Assembly: GCA_964553015.1 (NCBI GenBank)
Contig: CAZKJE010000001.1
Location: 6,110 to 70,109 of the forward strand
Reading direction: 5' to 3'
Length of the DNA stretch: 64,000 bases
Source of the DNA: an uncultured Candidatus Saccharibacteria bacterium
GTDB lineage: Bacteria > Patescibacteriota > Minisyncoccia > Phycocordibacterales > UBA9973
Below the pieces are notes generated by a model. That model had not been told where the DNA came from. It did not search any database and saw only the letters and a list, made by a program, of their open reading frames with translations. Shown piece after piece: positions 4,417 through 50,423 of this stretch. A program made the translations under genes and the position numbers. Within the stretch, counting starts at the first letter, position 1. The number at the start of each line of letters is the position of its first letter.

Positions 4417-5346
4417 CTATGATTCTACCGCAATTTGCGCCAATTTGACAGCGCCTTCTTTTGATTTCGCTCCTGCGAGGAAAAGCGCGCGGTGACAAAA
4501 AAGCGCATCTCCTACGCCTGAAACATTTACAAATTCTTCGTCGGAAAGTCCTGCCCAAAGTTTCGGCAAATTTTTTCTATTTTTAAAAGTTTTTATATCT
4601 GCCCTTATAGCTTTTACGCCCCAGCCGCCGGTCTTCCTGGGATACACTACAAAAAGAGGCTCGGGAAAATTCGAAACTATATATTCAAAAGGATAATTTT
4701 TATCTAAAACAACAATTCGCTTGTCTCCAGAGCTGTTATAAGAAGAAATCACGTCTTCTTCTGCTTCCAGCATATCCCGCGCCTGTACGATTTCCCGCGT
4801 CAAAATAATTTTGGCCATCTGTACGCATTCTAAAAATACCTCGTCGAGCTTGGTACTGTCTTCCTTCCATGTAGGCATCATAGAAAAGAAAATATTCTGG
4901 ATATAATATGGCGCCACGTCATATTTGTTTTCTGTCAGGTCAAATCCGTTATCGGCTGCATCGATAGGAGCGCACAGCCGTTTTTCAATTATTTCTGCCG
5001 CTCGTTTAGACCCTGCGATCTTTTCTCCGAATTTTTTCCACACCAGTCCCAAAGAAGAATATTCTATATTTCGGAGACTCTTGCCCGCCCCGCCGATTTG
5101 GTGATGATCAAAAAGATTCTTGCTCTCGTCATATATTCCGCCGACGTCGTATACATAATCCCCGGTTTTTATGACTTTCGGATCCCGGCTTCTTATTATT
5201 TCAAAAGCTGTATTTTCTTTTTCCAGCATCATGGAAAGTGCAGCCGTCGCAAAAATATCGTCAGCATGGAAAGCTCCGTCGTGCGTTATCAGCTTCTTTT
5301 TTAAATTTTCGTGCATGTTATGGTCTGTCATTATAATATTCTTCAA
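4417..5346 (-). CDS. MYG1/UPF0160-family metal-dependent hydrolase
   Basis: N-terminal ITHDGAFHADDIFATAAL motif (THxGxFHxDE) and a size of 309 aa. Confidence 0.6.
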   Translation of the reverse strand: MKNIIMTDHNMHENLKKKLITHDGAFHADDIFATAALSMMLEKENTAFEIIRSRDPKVIKTGDYVYDVGGIYDESKNLFDHHQIGGAGKSLRNIEYSSLGLVWKKFGEKIAGSKRAAEIIEKRLCAPIDAADNGFDLTENKYDVAPYYIQNIFFSMMPTWKEDSTKLDEVFLECVQMAKIILTREIVQARDMLEAEEDVISSYNSSGDKRIVVLDKNYPFEYIVSNFPEPLFVVYPRKTGGWGVKAIRADIKTFKNRKNLPKLWAGLSDEEFVNVSGVGDALFCHRALFLAGAKSKEGAVKLAQIAVES

Positions 5347-5923
5347 ATAATTCGTATATCCAGCTTACCAGTTTATCAAACAATATAAACATTATCACGA
5401 GCACAAGAACTACCATTGAAAATCTCCAGATTTCTCCGCTCACCTGCAAGGCAGTATAGCTGAAAATATACCCTAAAGAAAGGAGAAAAGGAGCCCAGAG
5501 TACAGTAGCCAATACTTCGGCTTTTAAATATTTTTTGTAATTTATTTTTTCGAAGCCAGAAAATATGATGACGACATTGTTCGCTCCTATGATAAATTTT
5601 GAAATAAAAATGGACCAGAACGGTTTTGTTTTAAATTTCGGTAGAAGCAGATACACACGCTTTTGAATGTAGCGAAAAAATCTGTGATGATTGAATTTTT
5701 TAAACAGAAACTGCCCGAGAGCATATCCGAAAAAAGTTTTAGCAAAAGCGCCGAGCAGGATGAATATGATAGCGACAAATACATTGAGCGCGCCCAAGTG
5801 CGCCAGAACTCCGGTAAATATTATCACAAACTCGCCCTCAAATATAATTCCGAGGAGAATTATAGCGTATATGAGAACCTGATGATTCTCCACTATGCCA
5901 GACAGAATTTTTACAGTGTGCAT
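5318..5923 (-). CDS. DedA/TVP38-family membrane protein
   Basis: Polytopic membrane protein of 201 aa with a DedA-like core. Confidence 0.45.
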   Translation of the reverse strand: MHTVKILSGIVENHQVLIYAIILLGIIFEGEFVIIFTGVLAHLGALNVFVAIIFILLGAFAKTFFGYALGQFLFKKFNHHRFFRYIQKRVYLLLPKFKTKPFWSIFISKFIIGANNVVIIFSGFEKINYKKYLKAEVLATVLWAPFLLSLGYIFSYTALQVSGEIWRFSMVVLVLVIMFILFDKLVSWIYELFEEYYNDRP

Positions 5924-5924
5924 T

Positions 5925-6209
5925 TTACTCTATGTAAGATTCCATGATCTTAATTTCAGCTTCTTCTTTATCTACCAAATCCTGACGATTTCCTTGTTTA
6001 AATAATTCTACAGCTTTTTTGCCTTTTTTCACCATACGCCTGATGACCGTGAGCGCCTCTTCATCTGTAAGTATTTCATTGGGCTTTCTGTTTTTACTTA
6101 CAAGCTCATTTGTAAAAGCTGCAGACATGCCTCTGTATGTTTCCAAGCTTATGCTGTCTTTGGCCATCATGGCCCCTTTTATTTTATTTTTTATTTGCTC
6201 ATGCAGCAT
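5925..6209 (-). CDS. GatB/YqeY-domain protein
   Basis: 94 aa. Segments ETYRGMSAAFTNE...EALTVIRRMVKKGKKAVELF match the YqeY family. Confidence 0.65.
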   Translation of the reverse strand: MLHEQIKNKIKGAMMAKDSISLETYRGMSAAFTNELVSKNRKPNEILTDEEALTVIRRMVKKGKKAVELFKQGNRQDLVDKEEAEIKIMESYIE

Positions 6210-6247
6210 ATAAATAAATTATAACAGAAATGTGCTAAAATAGCACT

Positions 6248-6964
6248 ATGCCTAAACTAATATTTTTTGATACAGAGACCACCGGAAATACCGAAAAAGA
6301 TTTTCTCGTTCAGATCGCTTTTAAAACTAGCGATGATACTTTTACTGAACTTTATAAACCACAAACAAAAATTCCGCCCGAGGCTTCGGCGGTTCATCAT
6401 ATCACAAATAAAATGGTAGCTGATAAACCGACTTTTAAAGAAAGTACCGATCAGCCGATCATTAAAAAACTTTTTGAAGACAAAGATTCTGTCGTCGTCG
6501 CTCACAACGCGCCTTTTGACCTAATGATCATAGCCAAAGAAGATATCGTGCCGAAAAAATTCATCTGCACCCTGCGCATCGCCAGAGAACTGGATAAAGA
6601 AGGAAAAATTGAACGATATAACTTGCAATATCTGCGATACTTGCTTGACCTTGATGTGGAAGCGACGGCCCATGATGCTATGGGAGATGTTTTAGTGCTC
6701 GAAAAACTTTTTGACAGGCTAAAAAAGAAAATTATAGAAGAACAAAAAATATCAGAAGAAGAAGCGATACAAAAAATGATAGAAATCTCTTCGCACCCGT
6801 CTATGATGCGCTCTTTTAGTTTTGGCAAGCACAACGGCAAAAAAATTGAAGAAGTACTAGCGACTGATCGCGGATACTTGGAATGGTTACTCGCTCAAAA
6901 GCTCGAAAGCGACCAAATTGAAGACGATTGGATCTACACTCTCCAGCATCATTTAGGAAAATAA
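6248..6964 (+). CDS. DEDDh 3'-5' exonuclease (DnaQ/exonuclease X-like) with a C-terminal GxYxG...EV...YLxWL domain
   Basis: Exo I FFDTETTG, Exo II VVAHNAPFDL, Exo III ATAHDAMGDVL. C-terminus KHNGKKIEEVLATDRGYLEWLL. Confidence 0.7.
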   Translation: MPKLIFFDTETTGNTEKDFLVQIAFKTSDDTFTELYKPQTKIPPEASAVHHITNKMVADKPTFKESTDQPIIKKLFEDKDSVVVAHNAPFDLMIIAKEDIVPKKFICTLRIARELDKEGKIERYNLQYLRYLLDLDVEATAHDAMGDVLVLEKLFDRLKKKIIEEQKISEEEAIQKMIEISSHPSMMRSFSFGKHNGKKIEEVLATDRGYLEWLLAQKLESDQIEDDWIYTLQHHLGK

Positions 6965-6971
6965 GTTTTTC

Positions 6972-7008
6972 TTGACAAAACGTTTTTTATGTGCACAATA
7001 GTATGTGA
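6972..7008 (+). promoter_or_regulatory. Promoter-like element (TTGACA at 6972-6977 with an AT-rich -10 region) upstream of the GC-rich unit
   Basis: cTTGACAaaacgttttttatgtgcacaatagtatgtg. The spacing to the -10 is ambiguous. Confidence 0.3.
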
Positions 7009-7009
7009 A

Positions 7010-7330
7010 ATAAGTTCACTAAACGAGAGGGAGATATTCCGCGAATGCAAATGCATTATGAGGATGTAGTGCTGGAAAGAGGAGATCATGCGATAATGCT
7101 GGAATCGAGAGGAATCCTTGAGGTCATCGTCGTTTTTAAGACGAAGGGACCCGTAGGGTTACTTGGGGTTCCTCAGAACTACAAGGAAGTGTGCAGCCAC
7201 TTCCTCACACAGGCTGCTAAACGCAGTCTTCCGGCCAAGCAGGTCAACTCGATGGTAATTCTCATCGAATAACTTAAACCGCATTCCCCACCGCCGGAGC
7301 CATCGCGCCCGCGCGGTGGTTTCTTTTTGT
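7010..7330 (+). ncRNA. Unclassified GC-rich transcription unit: candidate structured ncRNA or foreign 75-aa ORF
   Basis: About 50% GC against roughly 38-40% in the flanks. Promoter-like TTGACA upstream. Ends in the hairpin CCACCGC...GCGGTGG followed by TTTCTTTTTGT at 7289-7330. Conflicting ORFs on both strands (7045..7272 + and 7159..7356 -). Codon usage is unlike the neighbours. Confidence 0.3.
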
Positions 7331-7350
7331 ATGCATGCTAAAATATAAAT

Positions 7351-8406
7351 ATGCAAAATAGTTTTGAAATAATAATTGGATTAGTAATCGGCGGTATTTT
7401 TGTTTATTTTATTTTCGGCAGAAAGAAAGAAGAGAAGAAAGACGATCTAGGTCTGCAGTTAATTCTCACTCAATTAAACGAACTCTCGCGCACGGTAGAT
7501 AACAAAATCGGCGAATCACACAAACAAGTCAATGAAAGTCTTAAATTTCATTCCAGCGAATCAAATAAAATCATCAGGGACGTCACTGAACGCCTCACCA
7601 GATTGGACGAAACGAATAAACAAGTTATCTCTTTTGCCGATCAATTGCAAAGCTTGGAAAATATTTTAAAGAATCCCAAACAGCGCGGAATACTGGGAGA
7701 ATATTATTTGGAAACACTTCTAAAAAATGTTATGCCACCAGGAAGTTTTGAAATGCAATACAAGCTAGGAAAAAATGAAAATGGTGATGAATTAATACCA
7801 GATGCAGTAATATTTGTAAAGGATAAAATAATTCCAATAGATTCTAAATTCTCATTGGAAAATTATAATCGTATAGTGGATGAGCGAAATCCCGTAGAAA
7901 AAGAAAAATTGGAAAAAACTTTTGAAAACGACTTAAAAGACAGGATTGTTGAAACTTCAAAATATATACACCCAGAATTAGGCACCATGGAATTCGCCTT
8001 TATGTTCATTCCCCATGAAGCAATTTATTATGATTTACTAATAGGAAGAGTCGGTAAGGGTGAAGACGAAAATTTAATTCAACGTGCAGCAAATAAATAC
8101 AAAGTCATTATAGTGTCGCCTACCTCATTTCTTGCCTATCTACAAACAGTATTACAGGGATTAAATGCACTTAAAATTGAAAAAGATGCAGTTGAAATAA
8201 GGAAAAGAGTTGGAGAACTTGGCACACATTTAAAATCTTATGAAAAATATTATAACAGTCTTGGAAATGCTTTAGGAACTGTATTTAATCAATACTCTTT
8301 ATCTGGTAAAGAACTAAAAAAAATAGACAAAGATATTTTACGTATAACTAATTCTTCCCCTGAACTTACGTTGCTTGAGGTAGAAAAACCAAAATTTGAA
8401 GAGTAA
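7351..8406 (+). CDS. rmuC: DNA recombination protein RmuC
   Basis: N-terminal TM, a coiled coil, and an RmuC core (GILGEYYLETLLKNVMP...IPDAVIFV...IDSKFSLENY). Confidence 0.75.
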   Translation: MQNSFEIIIGLVIGGIFVYFIFGRKKEEKKDDLGLQLILTQLNELSRTVDNKIGESHKQVNESLKFHSSESNKIIRDVTERLTRLDETNKQVISFADQLQSLENILKNPKQRGILGEYYLETLLKNVMPPGSFEMQYKLGKNENGDELIPDAVIFVKDKIIPIDSKFSLENYNRIVDERNPVEKEKLEKTFENDLKDRIVETSKYIHPELGTMEFAFMFIPHEAIYYDLLIGRVGKGEDENLIQRAANKYKVIIVSPTSFLAYLQTVLQGLNALKIEKDAVEIRKRVGELGTHLKSYEKYYNSLGNALGTVFNQYSLSGKELKKIDKDILRITNSSPELTLLEVEKPKFEE

Positions 8407-44597: not shown

Positions 44598-46574
44598 TTA
44601 CTGCTTAGGCTTATCGGGAGCTGGTTCCACTGCAGGTGCAGATAATTTGTTTTTTATAGAATTTACGTATTCAATTATATCTTTATTGTTCGGCATAAGG
44701 GCCAGAGCTTCTTTTGCATAAATTAAAGCTTCTTCTCCTTTTCCGTCGGCATATAAAGAATTTGCTATAGCAATTTTTAAGCCTGGGTTAAGCGGATTTA
44801 AATTGGAAGCATTTTGATACGCTAAAACGGCTTGGCTGTAGGCATCTTTAGTTCCGAGAGCTCCCACAGCCTGATACACAGAACCCAGTAGTTGGAAATT
44901 AAGGTAATTGGACGGATTATAAGAAACAGCCAATTGCGCGCTTTTTACGACTTGATCAAAGCTGGTCTGCAAATTTGCTTTTTCTTCGTCGGATAAATTG
45001 GAGCCCTTAGCAGCTATGGAATTTAATTCAAGAAGATATATCTGTGAATAAGTTCTTAAATATAAATCATTGGAGTACAGAGAAAGCGCTTTGCCTATAT
45101 TTTCTTGCGCCAGAGGAATAGTCTGTGCGGAGAGAGCCTTGCCGAAATATGAAATAGAAACAAAACGTTCCGTAAACTTAAAGGAAGCGGTGATAGAAGT
45201 GATGATTAAAAGAATCAGAACTAAAATGGAGAAAAAACTTTTTCGGTGGTCATTTAAGAACGAAATTGATAATTCCTTGCCGGAGTTTGAAACCGCTAGC
45301 CCAGCAAACACCCCCATAAATGCAAAAGCCAATAAAAAGATTACAACTCCGGTAGCGTAAAAGAACGAAGCGATAATCAAATAGAGCGATAACACGAAAA
45401 ATGCCATCATTTCCCAGTTGGCTCCATTTTTTATGCTAGAAAATACGGATTTAACTCCAGCTATCAGGAAGAGAACCAAGAAAACAAGCCAGGATAGGAT
45501 TCCTAAACCACCCGTAGTAGATAAAAGCGTGGGCAGTGCACCGAAACTAGAATCAAAAGAAACATCCCAAAATTGAGTATTGTTTATGACGGCAGGTTTG
45601 TAAAGAGACCAAGCTTCGCTGAATCTGTTTGGGCCGATTCCTAATAGAGGATGCTTCAAGAGGACACCTTTGGTTACAGCAAAAGTAGCGCTAATAGAGG
45701 GGCCAACTTCGGTATTAGAAATTTGCAGACGATCAGGAATGAAACTGCCGATAAATTGGCCGGAGATAAAGAAGAGCAAGGATATCATCACCACCACAAA
45801 AGAAATCGTCGGAAAAGGCTTCTTTTCAGCTTGCTCCCCTTCGCTTCTTTGCAGAGTAATTGAAACTTTATAAACAAAAATAATAAGACCGGAAATGCCA
45901 AGCAAAATCCAAACCAATGTAAAGTTTACGGAAGCTATGACAAACATCGAAAGCAAGATTAGTATTTGCAGGAAAACCTTTTCAAATTTTGAAATCGGGA
46001 AAAATTCTATAACTAATAGGAACATCAGGGCCGAAAATCCGGCAAATAGGCCTAGCGCATTCCAAGAACCGAGGACGTTCCCTGTTTTACCTGACAAAAT
46101 ACCCAACGAAAGAGTCTCGGGGAAAAAGAGATGGACAGTTTGAAAAATTAAAACTAAAGCGGAGGATAATATCGTTCCAAGCAGGAAAATTTTTGCTTGT
46201 TTGGTGTTTTTAAAAATAATGGAAGACATGAGCATCAAAACAAAAGCGGCAAAAATAAACCAGAAGCTGCCGACATCAAACATTGTCCCGAATAAAGACA
46301 CTTGCGGAGTTGAAGACAAAAGAGAAGAAAGTAAAAATATCAGAGAAATGCCCGCGCCGGAAAGTATTATCCAAGATTTTGGCAAGATAATATTTCCGTC
46401 CAAGAATTTGGCGATAGCCCAGAAAACTATACTGATGGCAAGCCCTAAAACCAAGAGCAGACCTTTGGAAGCCTCAACCGGAATGTTTGTAAAAGGAAGA
46501 GCAAAAAGAGGCAGCAACACTACTACTAAAAATAATGCTAAAAATGAAAGCTTATCAAATATGTTTGAATTCAT
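44598..46574 (-). CDS. Polytopic membrane protein with O-antigen ligase/polymerase-like core and C-terminal TPR repeats
   Basis: At least 10 TM helices, a large periplasmic loop, and C-terminal TPR-like repeats (ALSLYSNDLYLRTYSQI..., AQLAVSYNPSN...). 658 aa. Confidence 0.5.
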   Translation of the reverse strand: MNSNIFDKLSFLALFLVVVLLPLFALPFTNIPVEASKGLLLVLGLAISIVFWAIAKFLDGNIILPKSWIILSGAGISLIFLLSSLLSSTPQVSLFGTMFDVGSFWFIFAAFVLMLMSSIIFKNTKQAKIFLLGTILSSALVLIFQTVHLFFPETLSLGILSGKTGNVLGSWNALGLFAGFSALMFLLVIEFFPISKFEKVFLQILILLSMFVIASVNFTLVWILLGISGLIIFVYKVSITLQRSEGEQAEKKPFPTISFVVVMISLLFFISGQFIGSFIPDRLQISNTEVGPSISATFAVTKGVLLKHPLLGIGPNRFSEAWSLYKPAVINNTQFWDVSFDSSFGALPTLLSTTGGLGILSWLVFLVLFLIAGVKSVFSSIKNGANWEMMAFFVLSLYLIIASFFYATGVVIFLLAFAFMGVFAGLAVSNSGKELSISFLNDHRKSFFSILVLILLIITSITASFKFTERFVSISYFGKALSAQTIPLAQENIGKALSLYSNDLYLRTYSQIYLLELNSIAAKGSNLSDEEKANLQTSFDQVVKSAQLAVSYNPSNYLNFQLLGSVYQAVGALGTKDAYSQAVLAYQNASNLNPLNPGLKIAIANSLYADGKGEEALIYAKEALALMPNNKDIIEYVNSIKNKLSAPAVEPAPDKPKQ

Positions 46575-46620: not shown

Positions 46621-49392
46621 CTATAAAACTATGTTGATAAGTCGGTTTTTGACATAGATAACTTTTTTAATAGGCGAATTTTTTATATGCCTTTCTATAG
46701 TTTCATCTGCGAGAGCCTGATTCTTAATGTTTTCCTCTGTGTCCTCTGTGCTTATCATAAGTTCGGCGCGCACTTTTCCATTTATCTGCACAGCTATTTT
46801 CATTTCTTCATCAGTAATTTTATCGGCATCCCATTTCGGCCAACTGGAAAGATTTATAGACTTTTTCTCTCCGAGCATGCTCCATAATTCTTCTGCGATA
46901 TGTGGTGCAAACGGAGCCAGAATCTGCAGAAATTTTTTATAATCTTCTTTACTAATTTCGCCCTTATCCATTTCATTTACGAGGACCATCATGGAAGATA
47001 CAGCCGTATTAAATCGCATGTCTTCTATGTCTTCCGAAACTTTTTTGATCGTTTTATGTAGAAGTTTCTGAGGTTTTGGCACAGAAAAATTTGAACCGTG
47101 TCCTGACCCACTTCCAGCTAAAGCGGGCGAATTTTTCTGCTGCGAAAATTTTATCCCTATTCTCCAAACTTTTTCCAAAAATCTCCTAGGGCCTATCATG
47201 CTATTTGTACTCCAAGATACTGATTGGTCAAAAGGCCCCATAAACATTTCGTACAGGCGAAGCGTGTCTGCGCCGTAGGTTTTTATTAAATCATCCGGAT
47301 TTACTACGTTGCCTTTGGATTTAGACATCTTCTCTCCCTCTTCCGCTAAAATAAGCCCGTGCGAGGTGCGTTTCATGTATGGTTCGCTGGTCGGTACTAA
47401 TTTCAAATCATATAAAAACTTATGCCAGAAACGCGAATACAGCAAATGGAGCGTCGTGTGCTCCATGCCCCCGTTGTACCAGTCAACGGGCGTCCAATAT
47501 TTTAAATTTTTTTTGCTGGCAAATTCTTTATTATTTTTTGGGTCAGTATATCGCAAGTAATACCAGCTCGAGCCAGCCCAATTCGGCATAGTATCCGTTT
47601 CTCTTTTGGCCCTCCCCTTACACTTCGGACATTTTACATTTACCCACGACTTTATATCGGCAAGCGGACTCTCTCCATTGTCTGTAGGTTTATATTTTGC
47701 CACCTTCGGCAGAACTACCGGCAAATCTTTTTCGGGCACCGGCACCCAAGTATTTGAGCAAGGACTCCCCTTGCTCATGCAATAGATTAGGGGTATAGGT
47801 TCGCCCCAATAACGCTGGCGGGAAAAAATCCAATCGCGAAGCTTGAAAGTGGTTTTTTCTTTTCCGCCGACAAATTTTATGATTTCTTTCCTAGCGATTT
47901 GCGAATCCAGACCGTCAAATTTGCCCGAATTGATTAGTATTCCGTCTCCCGAATAAACTTCTTGCCCATTTATTAACTCAAGGGCACGACGATGAGAATC
48001 CGCAGTCAAGTTTTTCTTGAGTTCATCTTTTGTAAGCCAAATTACATCATGAATTTCTTTTTCTTCCTCTGTAATATTTTCACATTTATTATCCTGTAAC
48101 TCAAAAACCATAGTATGCGAATGCGCGTAGCGATTGACCCCCTTTGGAACATGGTAAAACTTACCATGTAATCGTCCTAAATTAGAAATTAACTTTAAAT
48201 TTATATATCCTGTTTCTTCTTTGATTTCCATCCGTGCAGCTTCTTCAGGTGTTTGATTTTTCTCAATGCCTCCCGTAATAAATGTCGTCCAAGCTACTTT
48301 TTTCCAACGCAATGCTATATATTTTTCTTCAGACCAGTGCTTAACAATAGCAATAATTGCATCTCTGTGTTCAATGGGCAGATCTTCCCTTATTTTCCCA
48401 GGTTCTGTGGTCTGAAAAAAAGACGGCTCAATCACTTGTCTTATCGGCAAATTATATTTTTTAGCAAATTCAAAATCGCGCTCATCGTGCGCAGGCACGG
48501 CCATTATCGCTCCGGTGCCGATTTCTGACATAACATATTCCGCTTCCCAAACAGGGATTTTTTCTTTGGTTGCCGGATTAGTGACATATCGGCCGGTGAA
48601 TTTATCTTTCTCTCCGGCAATGGCGACAAAAGTGGCACCAAAAATCGTATCCGGCCTAGTAGTAAAAATATCTATACTGCCTTCTTCTCCTGCAAATTTA
48701 ATCACTGCCCCATTTTTCTTCCCTATCCAATTCCTCTGCTGAATTTTTATTTTTTCTAAATAGTTAACTGTATCTAAATCCTTATCCAGCCGCTCTGCAT
48801 ACTTTGTAATTGCCAGCATCCACTGCTCTTTTTCTCGCTTTTCTGTGGGGTTACCGCAGCGTTCGCACATGCCATCTATCACTTCTTCGTTGGCTAGGCC
48901 GATTTTGTCTACTGGACACCAGTTTATTTCAGTTTTGCTTTTATAAGCCAGACCTTTTTTATAAAATTGTAAAAATATCCATTGCGTCCATTTGTAATAT
49001 TTTGGATCGGTAGTATTTATTTCTCGCGACCAGTCAAAAGAAAAACCGAGAGCCTTGAGTTGTCGTCTAAACGTGTCAGTGTTTGTTTTAGTAACTTTTG
49101 TCGGATGAATGCCAGTCTTGATGGCATAGTTTTCCGTTGGTAATCCGAAGGCATCCCAGCCTATCGGATAAAGCACATTGTACCCTTCCATCCGGCGTTT
49201 GCGGGAAATGATGTCCATCGCAGTATTGGAGCGTATATGCCCCACATGAAGCCCCGAACCGGACGGATAAGGGAATTCTATCAAGCTATAAAATTTCGGC
49301 TTTTTAGAATTATCTTTTACTTGATAGATTTTATTTTTCTCCCATTCTTTCTGCCATTTTTTTTCGATTTTTAAATGGTTATATTCTGTCAT
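46621..49392 (-). CDS. leuS: Leucine--tRNA ligase with an inserted Nudix-like domain
   Basis: HVGH, the CP1 editing domain (TTRPDTIFGATFVAIA, GTGAIMAVPAHDERDFEFAKKYNLPI), KMSKS. Residues about 323-482 form an extra domain with the Nudix box GGIEKNQTPEEAARMEIKEETGY. Confidence 0.9.
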   Translation of the reverse strand: MTEYNHLKIEKKWQKEWEKNKIYQVKDNSKKPKFYSLIEFPYPSGSGLHVGHIRSNTAMDIISRKRRMEGYNVLYPIGWDAFGLPTENYAIKTGIHPTKVTKTNTDTFRRQLKALGFSFDWSREINTTDPKYYKWTQWIFLQFYKKGLAYKSKTEINWCPVDKIGLANEEVIDGMCERCGNPTEKREKEQWMLAITKYAERLDKDLDTVNYLEKIKIQQRNWIGKKNGAVIKFAGEEGSIDIFTTRPDTIFGATFVAIAGEKDKFTGRYVTNPATKEKIPVWEAEYVMSEIGTGAIMAVPAHDERDFEFAKKYNLPIRQVIEPSFFQTTEPGKIREDLPIEHRDAIIAIVKHWSEEKYIALRWKKVAWTTFITGGIEKNQTPEEAARMEIKEETGYINLKLISNLGRLHGKFYHVPKGVNRYAHSHTMVFELQDNKCENITEEEKEIHDVIWLTKDELKKNLTADSHRRALELINGQEVYSGDGILINSGKFDGLDSQIARKEIIKFVGGKEKTTFKLRDWIFSRQRYWGEPIPLIYCMSKGSPCSNTWVPVPEKDLPVVLPKVAKYKPTDNGESPLADIKSWVNVKCPKCKGRAKRETDTMPNWAGSSWYYLRYTDPKNNKEFASKKNLKYWTPVDWYNGGMEHTTLHLLYSRFWHKFLYDLKLVPTSEPYMKRTSHGLILAEEGEKMSKSKGNVVNPDDLIKTYGADTLRLYEMFMGPFDQSVSWSTNSMIGPRRFLEKVWRIGIKFSQQKNSPALAGSGSGHGSNFSVPKPQKLLHKTIKKVSEDIEDMRFNTAVSSMMVLVNEMDKGEISKEDYKKFLQILAPFAPHIAEELWSMLGEKKSINLSSWPKWDADKITDEEMKIAVQINGKVRAELMISTEDTEENIKNQALADETIERHIKNSPIKKVIYVKNRLINIVL

Positions 49393-49394
49393 TG

Positions 49395-50423
49395 TTATCT
49401 TACTGGTTTTGGGAACGGCGGGTATAGATCTTTATCTATAGTGCGAAGAAAACAAGTTCGTCCGGCTTCATGGCTCCACGATTCATTTGTGCCGCCGCCC
49501 GGATACGGGTAAGACACAGCCGCGTCTTTCTCGTAATACGGCATCATAGGAGGTATCCCTCCTCCGTAACTGTACTCCCTCCAGCCTTTCGGTATGGGTT
49601 GAGAAAAGGTAGCGCAAAGTTCAAACTGAAGAGAACCTTTCACTGCATACTCGTATGTTTTTCCTTTTTCAAATTCAGGTTCTACGGGCAAGGACCATCC
49701 GGAAATCGGGTCCGCCAGCTCGCTTAATGTTGCCGGTAATTTTTCTTTCTGCTGCCAGAAGTTAATTACCTGATATTGGATAGTCTGCAAATCATTTACT
49801 CTCCTGTCGTCTAAACGGAGAGATCTCTGCTTCATAGGACTGCCGAGAATAGCAAAACTGTAACTGACGGCCGTTATCACAATGACAATTCCCACGCCTC
49901 CCAAAATCATGCCGAGTTTTGATTGTGTTTCTTCTTTGGCTTTAAGATTACGTACATAGTAAAAACCTACAAGTCCGGCCACTATTAATACAGTTATAAC
50001 TTTATAAATAAATCTTGAAGTTATTTCTCCGGAAATAAAATACCTGACAAGCGTAACGAGATCGCCAGCGATAACAAGAGAAGAAAGAAAAAGAATAATA
50101 TATATCACCCATTTTTTAAACATCTCGTCGATCTGCCCCAAATACATCTTTGAAAATTTATTCCAAAAATAAGATATTGTGAGGAATATCGGAAAAACTA
50201 TTATGAGGGTTGCGAGCGCCGTGCGGATACCTTCATATTCGTACGTAGAATATCCGTATTGATAACTGGAATTTAAAACATCGGGAAAACGCTTGTTCAA
50301 TGTTTCAAAAACAAGATTTAGAAAAGATACGACCGAAGTTATTAAGGTTATTAATACCCCCAGACACAAGAAAAAGAACCCGACATTAAACTTTGAACTT
50401 ATAACGTTTGTTTGTGTTTCCAT
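49395..50423 (-). CDS. Hypothetical membrane protein with a C-terminal extracytoplasmic domain
   Basis: Five to six TM helices then a roughly 130-aa soluble domain. No motif recognised. Confidence 0.35.
   Translation of the reverse strand: METQTNVISSKFNVGFFFLCLGVLITLITSVVSFLNLVFETLNKRFPDVLNSSYQYGYSTYEYEGIRTALATLIIVFPIFLTISYFWNKFSKMYLGQIDEMFKKWVIYIILFLSSLVIAGDLVTLVRYFISGEITSRFIYKVITVLIVAGLVGFYYVRNLKAKEETQSKLGMILGGVGIVIVITAVSYSFAILGSPMKQRSLRLDDRRVNDLQTIQYQVINFWQQKEKLPATLSELADPISGWSLPVEPEFEKGKTYEYAVKGSLQFELCATFSQPIPKGWREYSYGGGIPPMMPYYEKDAAVSYPYPGGGTNESWSHEAGRTCFLRTIDKDLYPPFPKPVR

What the first reader, a model, noticed from the sequence alone, without database searches (positions are those of the whole stretch)
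47947..48426. Nudix hydrolase-like domain inserted inside leucyl-tRNA synthetase
The leuS product carries about 150 extra residues between the conserved end of the CP1 editing domain and the INSGKFDGLD segment. In E. coli this linker is about 25 aa.

The insertion has a near-canonical Nudix box, GGIEKNQTPEEAARMEIKEETGY (48205..48273), which aligns position by position to MutT GGKIEMGETPEQAVVRELQEEVGI. It also has Nudix-like flanking strands (AIIAIV, HTMVFEL, IHDVIWLTKDEL).

An aaRS with an embedded Nudix pyrophosphohydrolase could hydrolyse Ap4A or related dinucleoside polyphosphates made by synthetases, or proofread an adenylate. I am not aware of this fusion being described.
Basis: partly seen in the sequence, partly recalled or inferred. 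Interest (0 to 1): 0.85.

Follow-up and report, generated by a model that had tools for sequence, protein, structure and literature searches.

The report
Nudix domain built into leucyl-tRNA synthetase
The leucyl-tRNA synthetase of this ultra-small (Parcubacteria-type) bacterium really does carry a complete Nudix hydrolase domain inside its editing domain; this is the normal, conserved state of the enzyme across that whole lineage, I found no paper describing it, and what the domain hydrolyses is still unknown.

Summary
leuS lies on the minus strand (46621..49392, 923 aa). It carries about 150 extra residues (aa 322-483) in a surface loop of the CP1 editing domain. E. coli has 18 residues there and T. 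thermophilus has 9.

The insert is a genuine Nudix domain:
- Pfam PF00293 scores 54 bits against a cut-off of 21.
- AlphaFold2 pLDDT is 93-97.

It is not unique. All 120 closest LeuRS homologues carry it, and 102 of the 148 best clusters of this Nudix family are LeuRS. Relatives hold one to three copies at several sites around CP1. There are two paralogous types: a canonical "E-type", and a "Q-type" in which box Glu7 is Gln and Arg15 is usually lost. The window has one Q-type copy. Free-standing homologues exist, and two sit directly upstream of leuS. The same family is also inserted in a few ProRS whose closest relatives are DPANN-named.

The metal-binding glutamates and eight off-box residues are invariant, so the domain is probably an active pyrophosphohydrolase tethered to the synthetase.

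Eight of ten full-text searches targeted this fusion and found no paper on it. I rate it a new variant of a known kind, of moderate to high interest.

The parts
46621..49392 (-). leuS, leucyl-tRNA synthetase, 923 aa, intact ORF
   Evidence: ORF list. TIGR00396 scores 935.9 bits against a cut-off of 548.4. phmmer to T. thermophilus LeuRS 1H3N gives E 1.4e-197. AF2 model has mean pLDDT 90.2 and pTM 0.80.
47944..48429 (-). Inserted segment, aa 322-483: a Nudix domain with its family-specific N-terminal strand and C-terminal helices. It replaces an 18-aa loop in E. coli and a 9-aa loop in T. thermophilus.
   Evidence: Alignments to 1H3N and to E. coli K-12 LeuRS. Coordinates checked by translation.
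47980..48294 (-). Pfam NUDIX (PF00293) match, aa 367-471
48205..48273 (-). Nudix box, Q-type variant: GGIEKNQTPEEAARMEIKEETGY (aa 374-396). Position 7 is Gln, position 15 is Met, and Glu16/19/20 (E389, E392, E393) are kept.
   Evidence: Regex scan of all six frames finds this as the only box in the window. Family conservation over 120 LeuRS: G374 120, E389 120, E392 115, E393 120, G395 120.
48037..48159 (-). Family-invariant residues outside the box: F412, Y413, K417, N420, R421 (the X-loop region, 16-25 aa after the box) and E444, H448, W452. These are candidate substrate, phosphate and metal ligands.
   Evidence: Column counts in 120 LeuRS and in the E/Q/free-standing groups. X-loop concept from PMC5389931.
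48430..48720 (-). CP1 editing domain, part before the insert (aa ~225-321). It holds the Thr-rich motif TTRPDT (48646..48663) and GTGAIMAVPAHDERD (AHDERD at 48475..48492).
   Evidence: Pfam PF13603 is split around the insert. The motifs are invariant or nearly invariant in 105 relatives. Coordinates.
47845..47943 (-). CP1 editing domain, part after the insert (aa 484-516, GILINSGKFDGLD...KTTF), leading into the RDW strand that returns to the catalytic core
   Evidence: Alignment to 1H3N residues 375 onwards and to E. coli.
49237..49248 (-). HVGH (HIGH) class I signature
47317..47331 (-). KMSKS class I signature. The leucine-specific domain that precedes it in E. coli and T. thermophilus is absent.

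Best explanation
The segment is a complete Nudix-fold domain spliced in frame into a surface loop of the CP1 editing domain of an otherwise intact, functional bacterial-type LeuRS. It belongs to a Nudix family found mainly inside LeuRS of Parcubacteria-type CPR bacteria. The window's copy is the 'Q-type' paralogue.

Shown here:
- the domain identity, the fold and the insertion point;
- that the architecture is lineage-wide;
- that the metal-binding glutamates of the Nudix helix and a set of basic and aromatic residues around the X-loop are invariant.

Inferred:
- The domain is a working Mg2+/Mn2+-dependent pyrophosphohydrolase that is kept physically tethered to the synthetase.
- It removes a nucleoside-polyphosphate compound close to where the synthetase works.

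My best single guess for the substrate is a dinucleoside or nucleoside polyphosphate such as Ap4A, the side product that synthetases make from aminoacyl-AMP plus ATP. Tethering rather than exact placement seems to matter, because relatives carry the domain at several sites around CP1.

Rough sub-probabilities:
- genuine Nudix domain: above 0.95;
- catalytically active in this Q-type copy: about 0.6;
- function linked to synthetase chemistry: about 0.5;
- substrate is ApnA-like: about 0.25-0.3.
For: Domain identity:
- Pfam NUDIX 54.3 bits.
- AF2 pLDDT 93-97 over aa 330-480.

The host enzyme is intact:
- leuS_bact 936 bits.
- HIGH, KMSKS, TTRPDT and AHDxRD are all present.

Selection on the domain:
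- All 120 best LeuRS homologues carry PF00293.
- G374, E389, E393, G395, K417, N420 and W452 are invariant. R343, E392, R421, E444 and H448 are at least 92% conserved.
- This holds although the domain as a whole evolves much faster than the LeuRS body (42.5% vs 71% mean pairwise identity).

Association with synthetases:
- 102 of the 148 best 50%-identity clusters of the family are LeuRS.
- Relatives carry one to three copies per LeuRS.
- Two free-standing Q-type genes lie 46-52 nt upstream of leuS on the same strand.
- There is an independent insertion of the same family (39% identity, E 3e-25) in a class II ProRS.

Substrate hint:
- Tyr413 is 17 residues after the box, the position linked to ApnA hydrolases (PMC5389931).
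- Synthetases make Ap4A and Nudix enzymes degrade it (PMC10148737).
Against: - No biochemical data exist.
- No curated Nudix subfamily model comes near its cut-off: RppH 24 bits vs 116-259, YffH/AdpP 24 vs 80, MutT 20 vs 148. The substrate class is therefore not assigned.
- Structural similarity among Nudix enzymes discriminates substrates poorly.
- The window's copy lacks two canonical box residues (Glu7->Gln, Arg15->Met). Within the Q-type, Glu19 is also Gln in 16 of 77 members, so reduced or altered activity is possible.
- Nudix copies occur at different sites, and unrelated hydrolase domains (Ham1, HAD, alpha/beta hydrolase, DUF559) are inserted in the same LeuRS family. This fits simple hitch-hiking as well as it fits coupling.
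- Most free-standing homologues have no synthetase neighbour.
- I could not obtain model coordinates, so the distance from the Nudix site to the synthetic and editing sites is unknown.
Confidence: 0.45

Rival explanations
1. Hitch-hiker. The Nudix domain is an ordinary housekeeping nucleotide-sanitising enzyme. In these tiny genomes it has been fused into a tolerant surface loop of an essential, constitutively expressed protein. Its chemistry has nothing to do with leucylation or editing.
For: - The same LeuRS family carries other in-frame inserts at several loops: a Ham1/ITPase-like domain, a HAD phosphatase, Ser_hydrolase-type alpha/beta hydrolases and DUF559 endonuclease-like domains.
- Nudix copies sit at three or more different sites, singly or in tandem.
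- Nudix identity is almost uncorrelated with LeuRS-core identity (r = 0.11), and the E and Q types are interspersed.
- 37 of 148 clusters are free-standing, and they mostly have no conserved neighbours.
Against: - The family is overwhelmingly found inside LeuRS (102 of 148 clusters) rather than spread over many carrier proteins.
- The only other carrier found is another aminoacyl-tRNA synthetase (ProRS).
- Two free-standing genes form an apparent operon with leuS.
- Up to three paralogous copies in one LeuRS is hard to explain by expression economy alone.
Confidence: 0.3
2. Non-catalytic module. The Q-type copy has lost hydrolase activity. It serves instead as a ligand sensor, as a partner for an E-type Nudix, or as an extra tRNA/protein-binding surface, possibly compensating for the missing leucine-specific domain.
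For: - The Q-type always has Gln at box position 7 and usually lacks Arg15 (33 of 38 in LeuRS). It has Gln at Glu19 in 16 of 77 members, whereas the E-type keeps all of these.
- Q- and E-types co-occur in many LeuRS and in the leuS operons, so they are not redundant.
- The window LeuRS lacks the leucine-specific domain and a CP1 hairpin.
- There is precedent for embedded Nudix domains that lost catalysis: vertebrate TRPM2 NUDT9-H (PMC6461439).
Against: - In the window copy, Glu16, Glu19 and Glu20 are intact. E389 and E393 are invariant in all 160 family domains examined, as are K417, N420 and W452; H448 is near-invariant, and E444 is E in 157 of 160. This pattern is typical of a preserved active site.
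- Glu7 and Arg15 co-vary as a pair (79 E/R, 33 Q/non-R, 5 Q/R, 1 E/non-R). This looks like the exchange of a structural pair rather than decay.
- Inactive Nudix domains such as TRPM2 have lost the REUXEE glutamates, which is not the case here.
Confidence: 0.15
3. RNA-end enzyme. The domain acts on RNA rather than on free nucleotides, in the manner of RppH or NudC. For example, it might remove a 5' triphosphate, an Np4N/NAD cap or another pyrophosphate-linked adduct from tRNA while the tRNA is held by the synthetase.
For: - The best (weak) NCBIfam hits include RNA pyrophosphohydrolase models.
- CP1 is the part of LeuRS that handles the tRNA acceptor end (established knowledge).
- Both carriers, LeuRS and ProRS, bind tRNA.
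Against: - RppH scores are 24 bits against cut-offs of 116-259.
- RppH is not among the closest structures.
- Mature tRNA normally has a 5' monophosphate.
- The variable placement of the domain gives no consistent route to either tRNA end.
Confidence: 0.1

Closest known systems
PDB 2AZW, MutT/nudix family protein of Enterococcus faecalis (structural-genomics entry, function not assigned)
   Different: It is a free-standing protein with a canonical E/R box and no characterised substrate, so it gives no functional transfer.
Nudix (di)nucleoside and inositol polyphosphate hydrolases: M. tuberculosis Rv2985/MutT1 (9CXX), T. thermophilus Ndx1 Ap6A hydrolase (1VC8), Aquifex Ap4A hydrolase (3I7U), DDP1/DIPP1
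   Different: Identity is only 16-22%. No curated subfamily model is matched. These are free-standing enzymes, and activity has not been tested for our family.
Aminoacyl-tRNA synthetases with extra catalytic domains, e.g. the CP1 editing domain itself and IleRS with a GNAT domain (NCBIfam NF040702 'ileS_w_GNAT', listed)
   Same: A synthetase body serves as the scaffold for an additional enzymatic module.
   Different: Here the module is a Nudix pyrophosphohydrolase nested inside CP1, a domain inside an inserted domain. It is present in one to three copies and two paralogous types. I found no description of such a synthetase.
Nudix domains embedded in larger proteins and double-Nudix proteins: TRPM2 NUDT9-H (PMC6461439) and double MutT/Nudix proteins (Lin et al. 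2009, cited in PMC5389931)
   Same: A Nudix domain serves as a module of a multidomain protein. Tandem Nudix pairs occur in which one copy has a variant box.
   Different: In vertebrate TRPM2 the REUXEE glutamates are lost and the domain is a ligand sensor. Here they are invariant.

Membership tests
Nudix homology clan (Pfam PF00293) | Significant match to the family HMM above the curated gathering score | tested here: met
   54.3 bits against 21.1 in the full protein, and 58.3 bits on the excised segment.
Nudix homology clan (Pfam PF00293) | Nudix fold: a mixed beta-sheet sandwich with the loop-helix-loop of the Nudix motif | tested here: met
Canonical Nudix pyrophosphohydrolases | Nudix box GX5EX7REUXEEXGU | tested here: inconclusive
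   21 of 23 positions are satisfied: G1, E16, U17, E19, E20, G22 and an aromatic residue at position 23 are present. Glu7 is Gln and Arg15 is Met. 79 of 120 orthologous LeuRS inserts have the full canonical box. The Q-type variant is conserved as a class.
Canonical Nudix pyrophosphohydrolases | Divalent-cation-dependent hydrolysis of a nucleoside diphosphate linked to X | not testable with these tools
   This needs enzyme assays.
Bacterial-type leucyl-tRNA synthetase (TIGR00396) | Equivalog HMM above cut-off; HIGH and KMSKS signatures; CP1 editing motifs (Thr-rich region, GTG...AHDxRD) | tested here: met
   935.9 bits against 548.4. HVGH, KMSKS, TTRPDT and AHDERD are present, and the editing motifs are invariant in relatives. 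The leucine-specific domain and a CP1 hairpin are absent, but they are not defining.
Nudix Ap4A/ApnA hydrolases | [quoted passage not shown] 1999, as summarised in PMC5389931) | tested here: met
   Tyr413 is 17 residues after Tyr396, the last box residue. The column is Y86/F32 in 120 LeuRS. This is a weak criterion on its own.
Nudix Ap4A/ApnA hydrolases | Sequence membership in a characterised ApnA hydrolase subfamily | tested here: not met
   There are only marginal phmmer and profile hits to 3I7U, 1F3Y/1JKN and 1VC8 (E 0.0003-0.3), and no curated model is matched. I therefore do not file it as an Ap4A hydrolase; the idea stays a working hypothesis.
RppH / MutT / ADP-ribose pyrophosphatase (NCBIfam equivalogs) | Score above the curated cut-off of the equivalog model | tested here: not met
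   Scores against cut-offs: RppH PRK00714 20-24 bits vs 116-259; MutT NF008044 20 vs 148; TIGR00052 24 vs 80; NudE 15 vs 169.

The most novel reading that the evidence does not exclude
A dedicated, previously undescribed family of synthetase-tethered Nudix hydrolases exists in ultra-small prokaryotes. It occurs as one to three copies of two paralogous types nested in the LeuRS editing domain across Parcubacteria, and was fused independently into a few ProRS whose closest relatives are DPANN-named. In this reading the family clears a nucleotide by-product of aminoacylation (Ap4A/ApnN or a related adenylate-derived compound) in cis. That would be a new kind of by-product control or proofreading built into aminoacyl-tRNA synthetases.
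Probability: 0.2. Interest if true: 0.8.

Novelty: new variant of a known kind. Interest (0 to 1): 0.62.

Why it matters
Aminoacyl-tRNA synthetases are the main cellular source of Ap4A and related dinucleoside polyphosphates, and Nudix enzymes are among the main routes for degrading them. A physical fusion of the two has not, to my knowledge, been described.

Here the fusion is the rule for a whole radiation of reduced-genome bacteria:
- it occurs in more than 100 sequence clusters;
- the catalytic residues are invariant;
- there are multiple copies and two paralogous types;
- it recurs in a second, unrelated synthetase.

This gives a concrete protein on which to test whether synthetase by-products are removed on the spot.

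The finding also shows that CP1 of LeuRS is a hot spot for nesting further hydrolase domains in CPR bacteria. That bears on how streamlined genomes package functions.

If the domain turns out to be a simple hitch-hiker, the finding is still a clean example of domain-in-domain nesting, but of modest biological weight.

Tried and rejected
1. Searching the big protein collection with the insert alone returned only free-standing Nudix proteins and one fragment. It did not even return the window's own LeuRS. That was a limitation of the word-index candidate step, not biology: the full-length search and the exhaustive representative search showed that the LeuRS-embedded form dominates.
2. Chimera, frameshift or pseudogene: rejected. 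The ORF is continuous, and more than 100 independent assemblies share the architecture.
3. Intein or other self-splicing/mobile insert: no evidence. The insert has no intein-like features, it is a conserved enzyme domain, and it has no repeated linkers. Some other inserts in relatives do have such linkers.
4. The NJ tree of 160 family domains has very short internal branches. It could not decide whether the free-standing genes gave rise to the embedded copies or the reverse, so I draw no direction.
5. Neighbourhood of 16 free-standing genes: no recurrent neighbour except leuS in two loci.
6. Context in the window: the flanking genes are membrane proteins (DUF5671 and one unassigned) and a methyltransferase. 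Promoter and terminator scans are at background level. Rfam finds only tRNAs. None of this is informative.
7. Source organism: the exact protein has no contig on record and the cluster has no name. The lineage is inferred only from the names of the closest homologues.
8. Foldseek against AFDB50 was unavailable.
9. Model coordinates are not exposed. I therefore could not measure where the Nudix cleft points relative to the synthetic and editing sites.
None found a paper on a Nudix-containing synthetase. The library lacks most subscription-journal papers, so this is absence of evidence only.
Full report
OBSERVATION. The finding's coordinates fall inside a single intact ORF on the minus strand, 46621..49392, 923 aa. 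The plus-strand translation of the interval is full of stops.

The protein is a bacterial-type leucyl-tRNA synthetase:
- TIGR00396 scores 935.9 bits against a cut-off of 548.4.
- phmmer to T. thermophilus LeuRS gives E 1.4e-197.

Pfam NUDIX (PF00293) matches aa 367-471 with 54.3 bits (gathering score 21.1, E 1.9e-14), and 58.3 bits on the excised 160 residues. The box GGIEKNQTPEEAARMEIKEETGY is at 48205..48273 as stated, and it is the only Nudix box in the 64-kb window.

ANATOMY. Against T. thermophilus LeuRS, query residues 324->478 replace Tth 366-374. Against E. coli K-12 LeuRS, the window has aa 322-483 where E. coli has 18 residues, LAADGSEPDLSQQALTEK.

The insert lies inside the CP1 editing domain, not after it. 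The Pfam editing-domain model is split around it, and the strand GILINSGKFDG that follows is still CP1.

The editing motifs TTRPDT and GTGAIMAVPAHDERD and the class I signatures HVGH and KMSKS are present. The editing motifs are invariant or nearly so in relatives. The host enzyme therefore looks fully functional.

Compared with E. coli and Thermus, this LeuRS lacks the leucine-specific domain. Unlike 108 of its 120 closest relatives, it also lacks a roughly 40-residue helical hairpin of CP1.

AlphaFold2 on a 105-sequence alignment gives mean pLDDT 90.2 and pTM 0.80, with pLDDT 93-97 across the insert. A domain-only model (pLDDT 90.2) matches Nudix structures exclusively:

THE BOX IS A VARIANT. 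Against GX5EX7REUXEEXGU, the window has Gln at position 7 and Met at position 15, with Arg at 14. Glu16, Glu19 and Glu20 (E389, E392, E393) are kept.

In 120 LeuRS relatives, position 7 is E in 80 and Q in 38, and position 15 is R in 85. The two positions co-vary: 79 E/R, 33 Q/non-R, 5 Q/R and 1 E/non-R. Fisher's test gives p = 8e-23, though the sequences are not phylogenetically independent.

I call the two classes E-type (canonical) and Q-type. The Q-type also has Gln at Glu19 in 16 of 77 members, against 0 of 81 for the E-type.

Across both types and the free-standing proteins, G374, E389, E393, G395, K417, N420 and W452 are invariant in the 160 domains examined. R343, R421, E444 (157/160) and H448 are nearly so. 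The window copy has all of these.

DISTRIBUTION.
- All of the 120 best LeuRS homologues (60-69% identity, 908-1322 aa) carry PF00293. Their source names are Paceibacterota, Nomurabacteria, Kaiserbacteria, Minisyncoccia and Parcubacteria. Several are in UniRef and nr.
- An exhaustive profile search of 1.84 billion cluster representatives found 357 clusters at E<=1e-10. Of the best 148, 102 are LeuRS (complete or fragments), 37 are free-standing proteins under 240 aa, and 9 are other.
- A scan of GTDB species genomes with Q-type patterns gave 107 relatives. Most of the 80 loci kept lie within leuS, about 15 are free-standing, and some leuS carry two boxes.
- Architectures vary. Nudix copies occur before the Thr-rich motif ('site 2', single or tandem), in the main site between AHDxRD and NSxxFxG (single or tandem), and after the RDW strand. 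Up to three copies occur per LeuRS (P0153, P0154, L039). Some LeuRS have only the site-2 copy.
- In two loci (L044, L045) a free-standing Q-type gene ends 46-52 nt upstream of a leuS that carries an E-type insert, on the same strand. Other free-standing genes have no recurrent neighbour.
- Two free-standing proteins are named 'leuS' in NCBI records. This is evidently annotation transferred from Nudix-containing LeuRS.

A SECOND CARRIER. One of the 'other' proteins, P0292, is a class II prolyl-tRNA synthetase. It has the same Nudix family (39% identity to the window domain, E 3e-25) inserted between the anticodon-binding domain and the C-terminal domain. Only 5 of its 120 closest ProRS relatives have the insert, and those relatives are named Nanoarchaeota/Woesearchaeota. 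The family has therefore been fused independently to two unrelated synthetases.

EVOLUTION.
- The Nudix part evolves faster than the rest: mean pairwise identity is 42.5% against 71%.
- Nudix identity is nearly uncorrelated with LeuRS-core identity (r = 0.11). E- and Q-types are interspersed among LeuRS cores.
- The window domain is 55% identical on average to main-site Q-type copies, 53% to site-2 copies, 46% to free-standing proteins, and 39.5% to E-type copies.
- This fits an ancestral E+Q pair with differential loss, or repeated replacement. The NJ tree is too poorly resolved to decide.

FUNCTION.
Shown: this is a complete Nudix fold under strong purifying selection at the metal-binding helix and at a ring of basic and aromatic residues. 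It is kept attached to a synthetase across a large radiation.

Inferred: it is an active pyrophosphohydrolase whose work is linked to the synthetase.

The substrate is not assigned, because no curated subfamily model comes near its cut-off. There are hints towards dinucleoside or nucleoside polyphosphates:
- the nearest characterised structures;
- Tyr413 at 17 residues after the motif, the X-loop position associated with ApnA hydrolases (PMC5389931);
- the invariant basic residues;
- the fact that synthetases make Ap4A and Nudix enzymes degrade it (PMC10148737);
- the recurrence in ProRS.

The domain sits at different places around CP1 in different relatives, so proximity rather than a fixed geometry seems to be what is selected. 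This argues against direct proofreading of the adenylate in the synthetic site.

RIVALS.
(a) Hitch-hiking of a housekeeping Nudix on an essential protein. This is supported by the other hydrolase domains nested in the same LeuRS family (Ham1, HAD, alpha/beta hydrolase, DUF559) and by the discordant evolution. It is weakened by the near-exclusive association with synthetases and by the leuS operons.
(b) A non-catalytic Q-type module. This is supported by the eroded box and the co-occurrence with the E-type. It is weakened by the invariant glutamates and off-box residues.
(c) An RNA-end enzyme of the RppH kind. It rests only on weak similarity.

COMPARISON AND NOVELTY. The domain is a member of the Nudix clan: the HMM and fold criteria are met, and the box is 21/23. 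The host is a member of bacterial LeuRS.

The domain is not a member of any characterised Nudix subfamily tested. Synthetases with added catalytic modules are known, and so are Nudix domains embedded in larger proteins. I found no description of a Nudix-containing synthetase in eight full-text searches, and the large Nudix clan survey does not mention synthetases.

The architecture is visible in public databases, so the window's gene is an ordinary member of its lineage. As a biological phenomenon it appears undescribed, and I rate it a new variant of a known kind.

VERDICT.
- the domain identity holds;
- the uniqueness does not;
- Ap4A hydrolysis is a plausible but unproven function;
- adenylate proofreading is unlikely.

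Interest is 0.62.

Noticed in passing
Relatives of window leuS (P0055, P0089, P0095, P0108, P0109, P0123, P0128, P0079, P0083, P0111); positions given relative to window LeuRS aa 234, 491, 545, 594: LeuRS of this lineage is a hot spot for other in-frame nested domains. DUF559 endonuclease-like (110 bits), Ser_hydrolase/alpha-beta hydrolase and Ham1/ITPase-like (42 bits) domains sit after aa 234. An alpha/beta hydrolase sits after aa 545 and a HAD phosphatase after aa 594. Two 121-aa inserts have no Pfam match.
   Followed up: partly
P0128 (relative of window leuS), insert after the equivalent of aa 234: Two different cassettes (an alpha/beta hydrolase, then DUF559) lie in tandem. Each is preceded by the same linker PSPALPEGEGE, and the second cassette ends in SFGEGWGG. 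P0109 uses the same linkers and P0055 a looser variant. This looks like a reusable in-frame insertion module.
   Followed up: no
P0292 and P0301-P0304 (not in the window): Class II prolyl-tRNA synthetases whose closest relatives are DPANN-named carry the same Nudix family between the anticodon-binding and C-terminal domains. Only 5 of the 120 closest ProRS have it.
   Followed up: partly
window 48595..48597 / 48592..48594 (between aa 266 and 267 of LeuRS) and 47332..47349 (aa 682-687, just before KMSKS): The window LeuRS lacks a roughly 40-aa helical hairpin of CP1 that 108 of 120 relatives, E. coli and T. thermophilus have. Like all its CPR relatives aligned here, it also lacks the leucine-specific domain.
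   Followed up: partly
L044 3980..4471 and 4518..7406; L045 3989..4480 and 4532..7426: A free-standing Q-type Nudix gene lies immediately upstream of, and co-directional with, a leuS that carries an E-type Nudix insert. This is an apparent operon, in genomes labelled Saccharibacteria/Saccharimonadales.
   Followed up: yes
P0003, P0004 (NCBI records of Parcubacteria MAGs): 157-aa free-standing Nudix proteins are named 'leuS' by their source. This is probably annotation transferred from Nudix-containing LeuRS. P0003 is not next to leuS.
   Followed up: partly
window 47086..47130 (LeuRS aa 755-769): This is the only low-confidence stretch of the model (pLDDT below 50). It is a Gly/Ser-rich segment (SPALAGSGSGHGSNF) in the anticodon-binding region, and its length varies among relatives.
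   Followed up: no
L015 and L026 (GTDB genomes labelled Woesearchaeota / Nanoarchaeota): Bacterial-type LeuRS with a Q-type Nudix appears in assemblies labelled as DPANN archaea. This could be mis-binning or transfer between co-occurring ultra-small organisms.
   Followed up: no
window 49395..50423 (-) and 44598..46574 (-): leuS is flanked on the same strand by a DUF5671 membrane protein, which ends 2 nt before the leuS start, and by a 658-aa polytopic membrane protein with no Pfam match. There is no evident link to the finding.
   Followed up: partly
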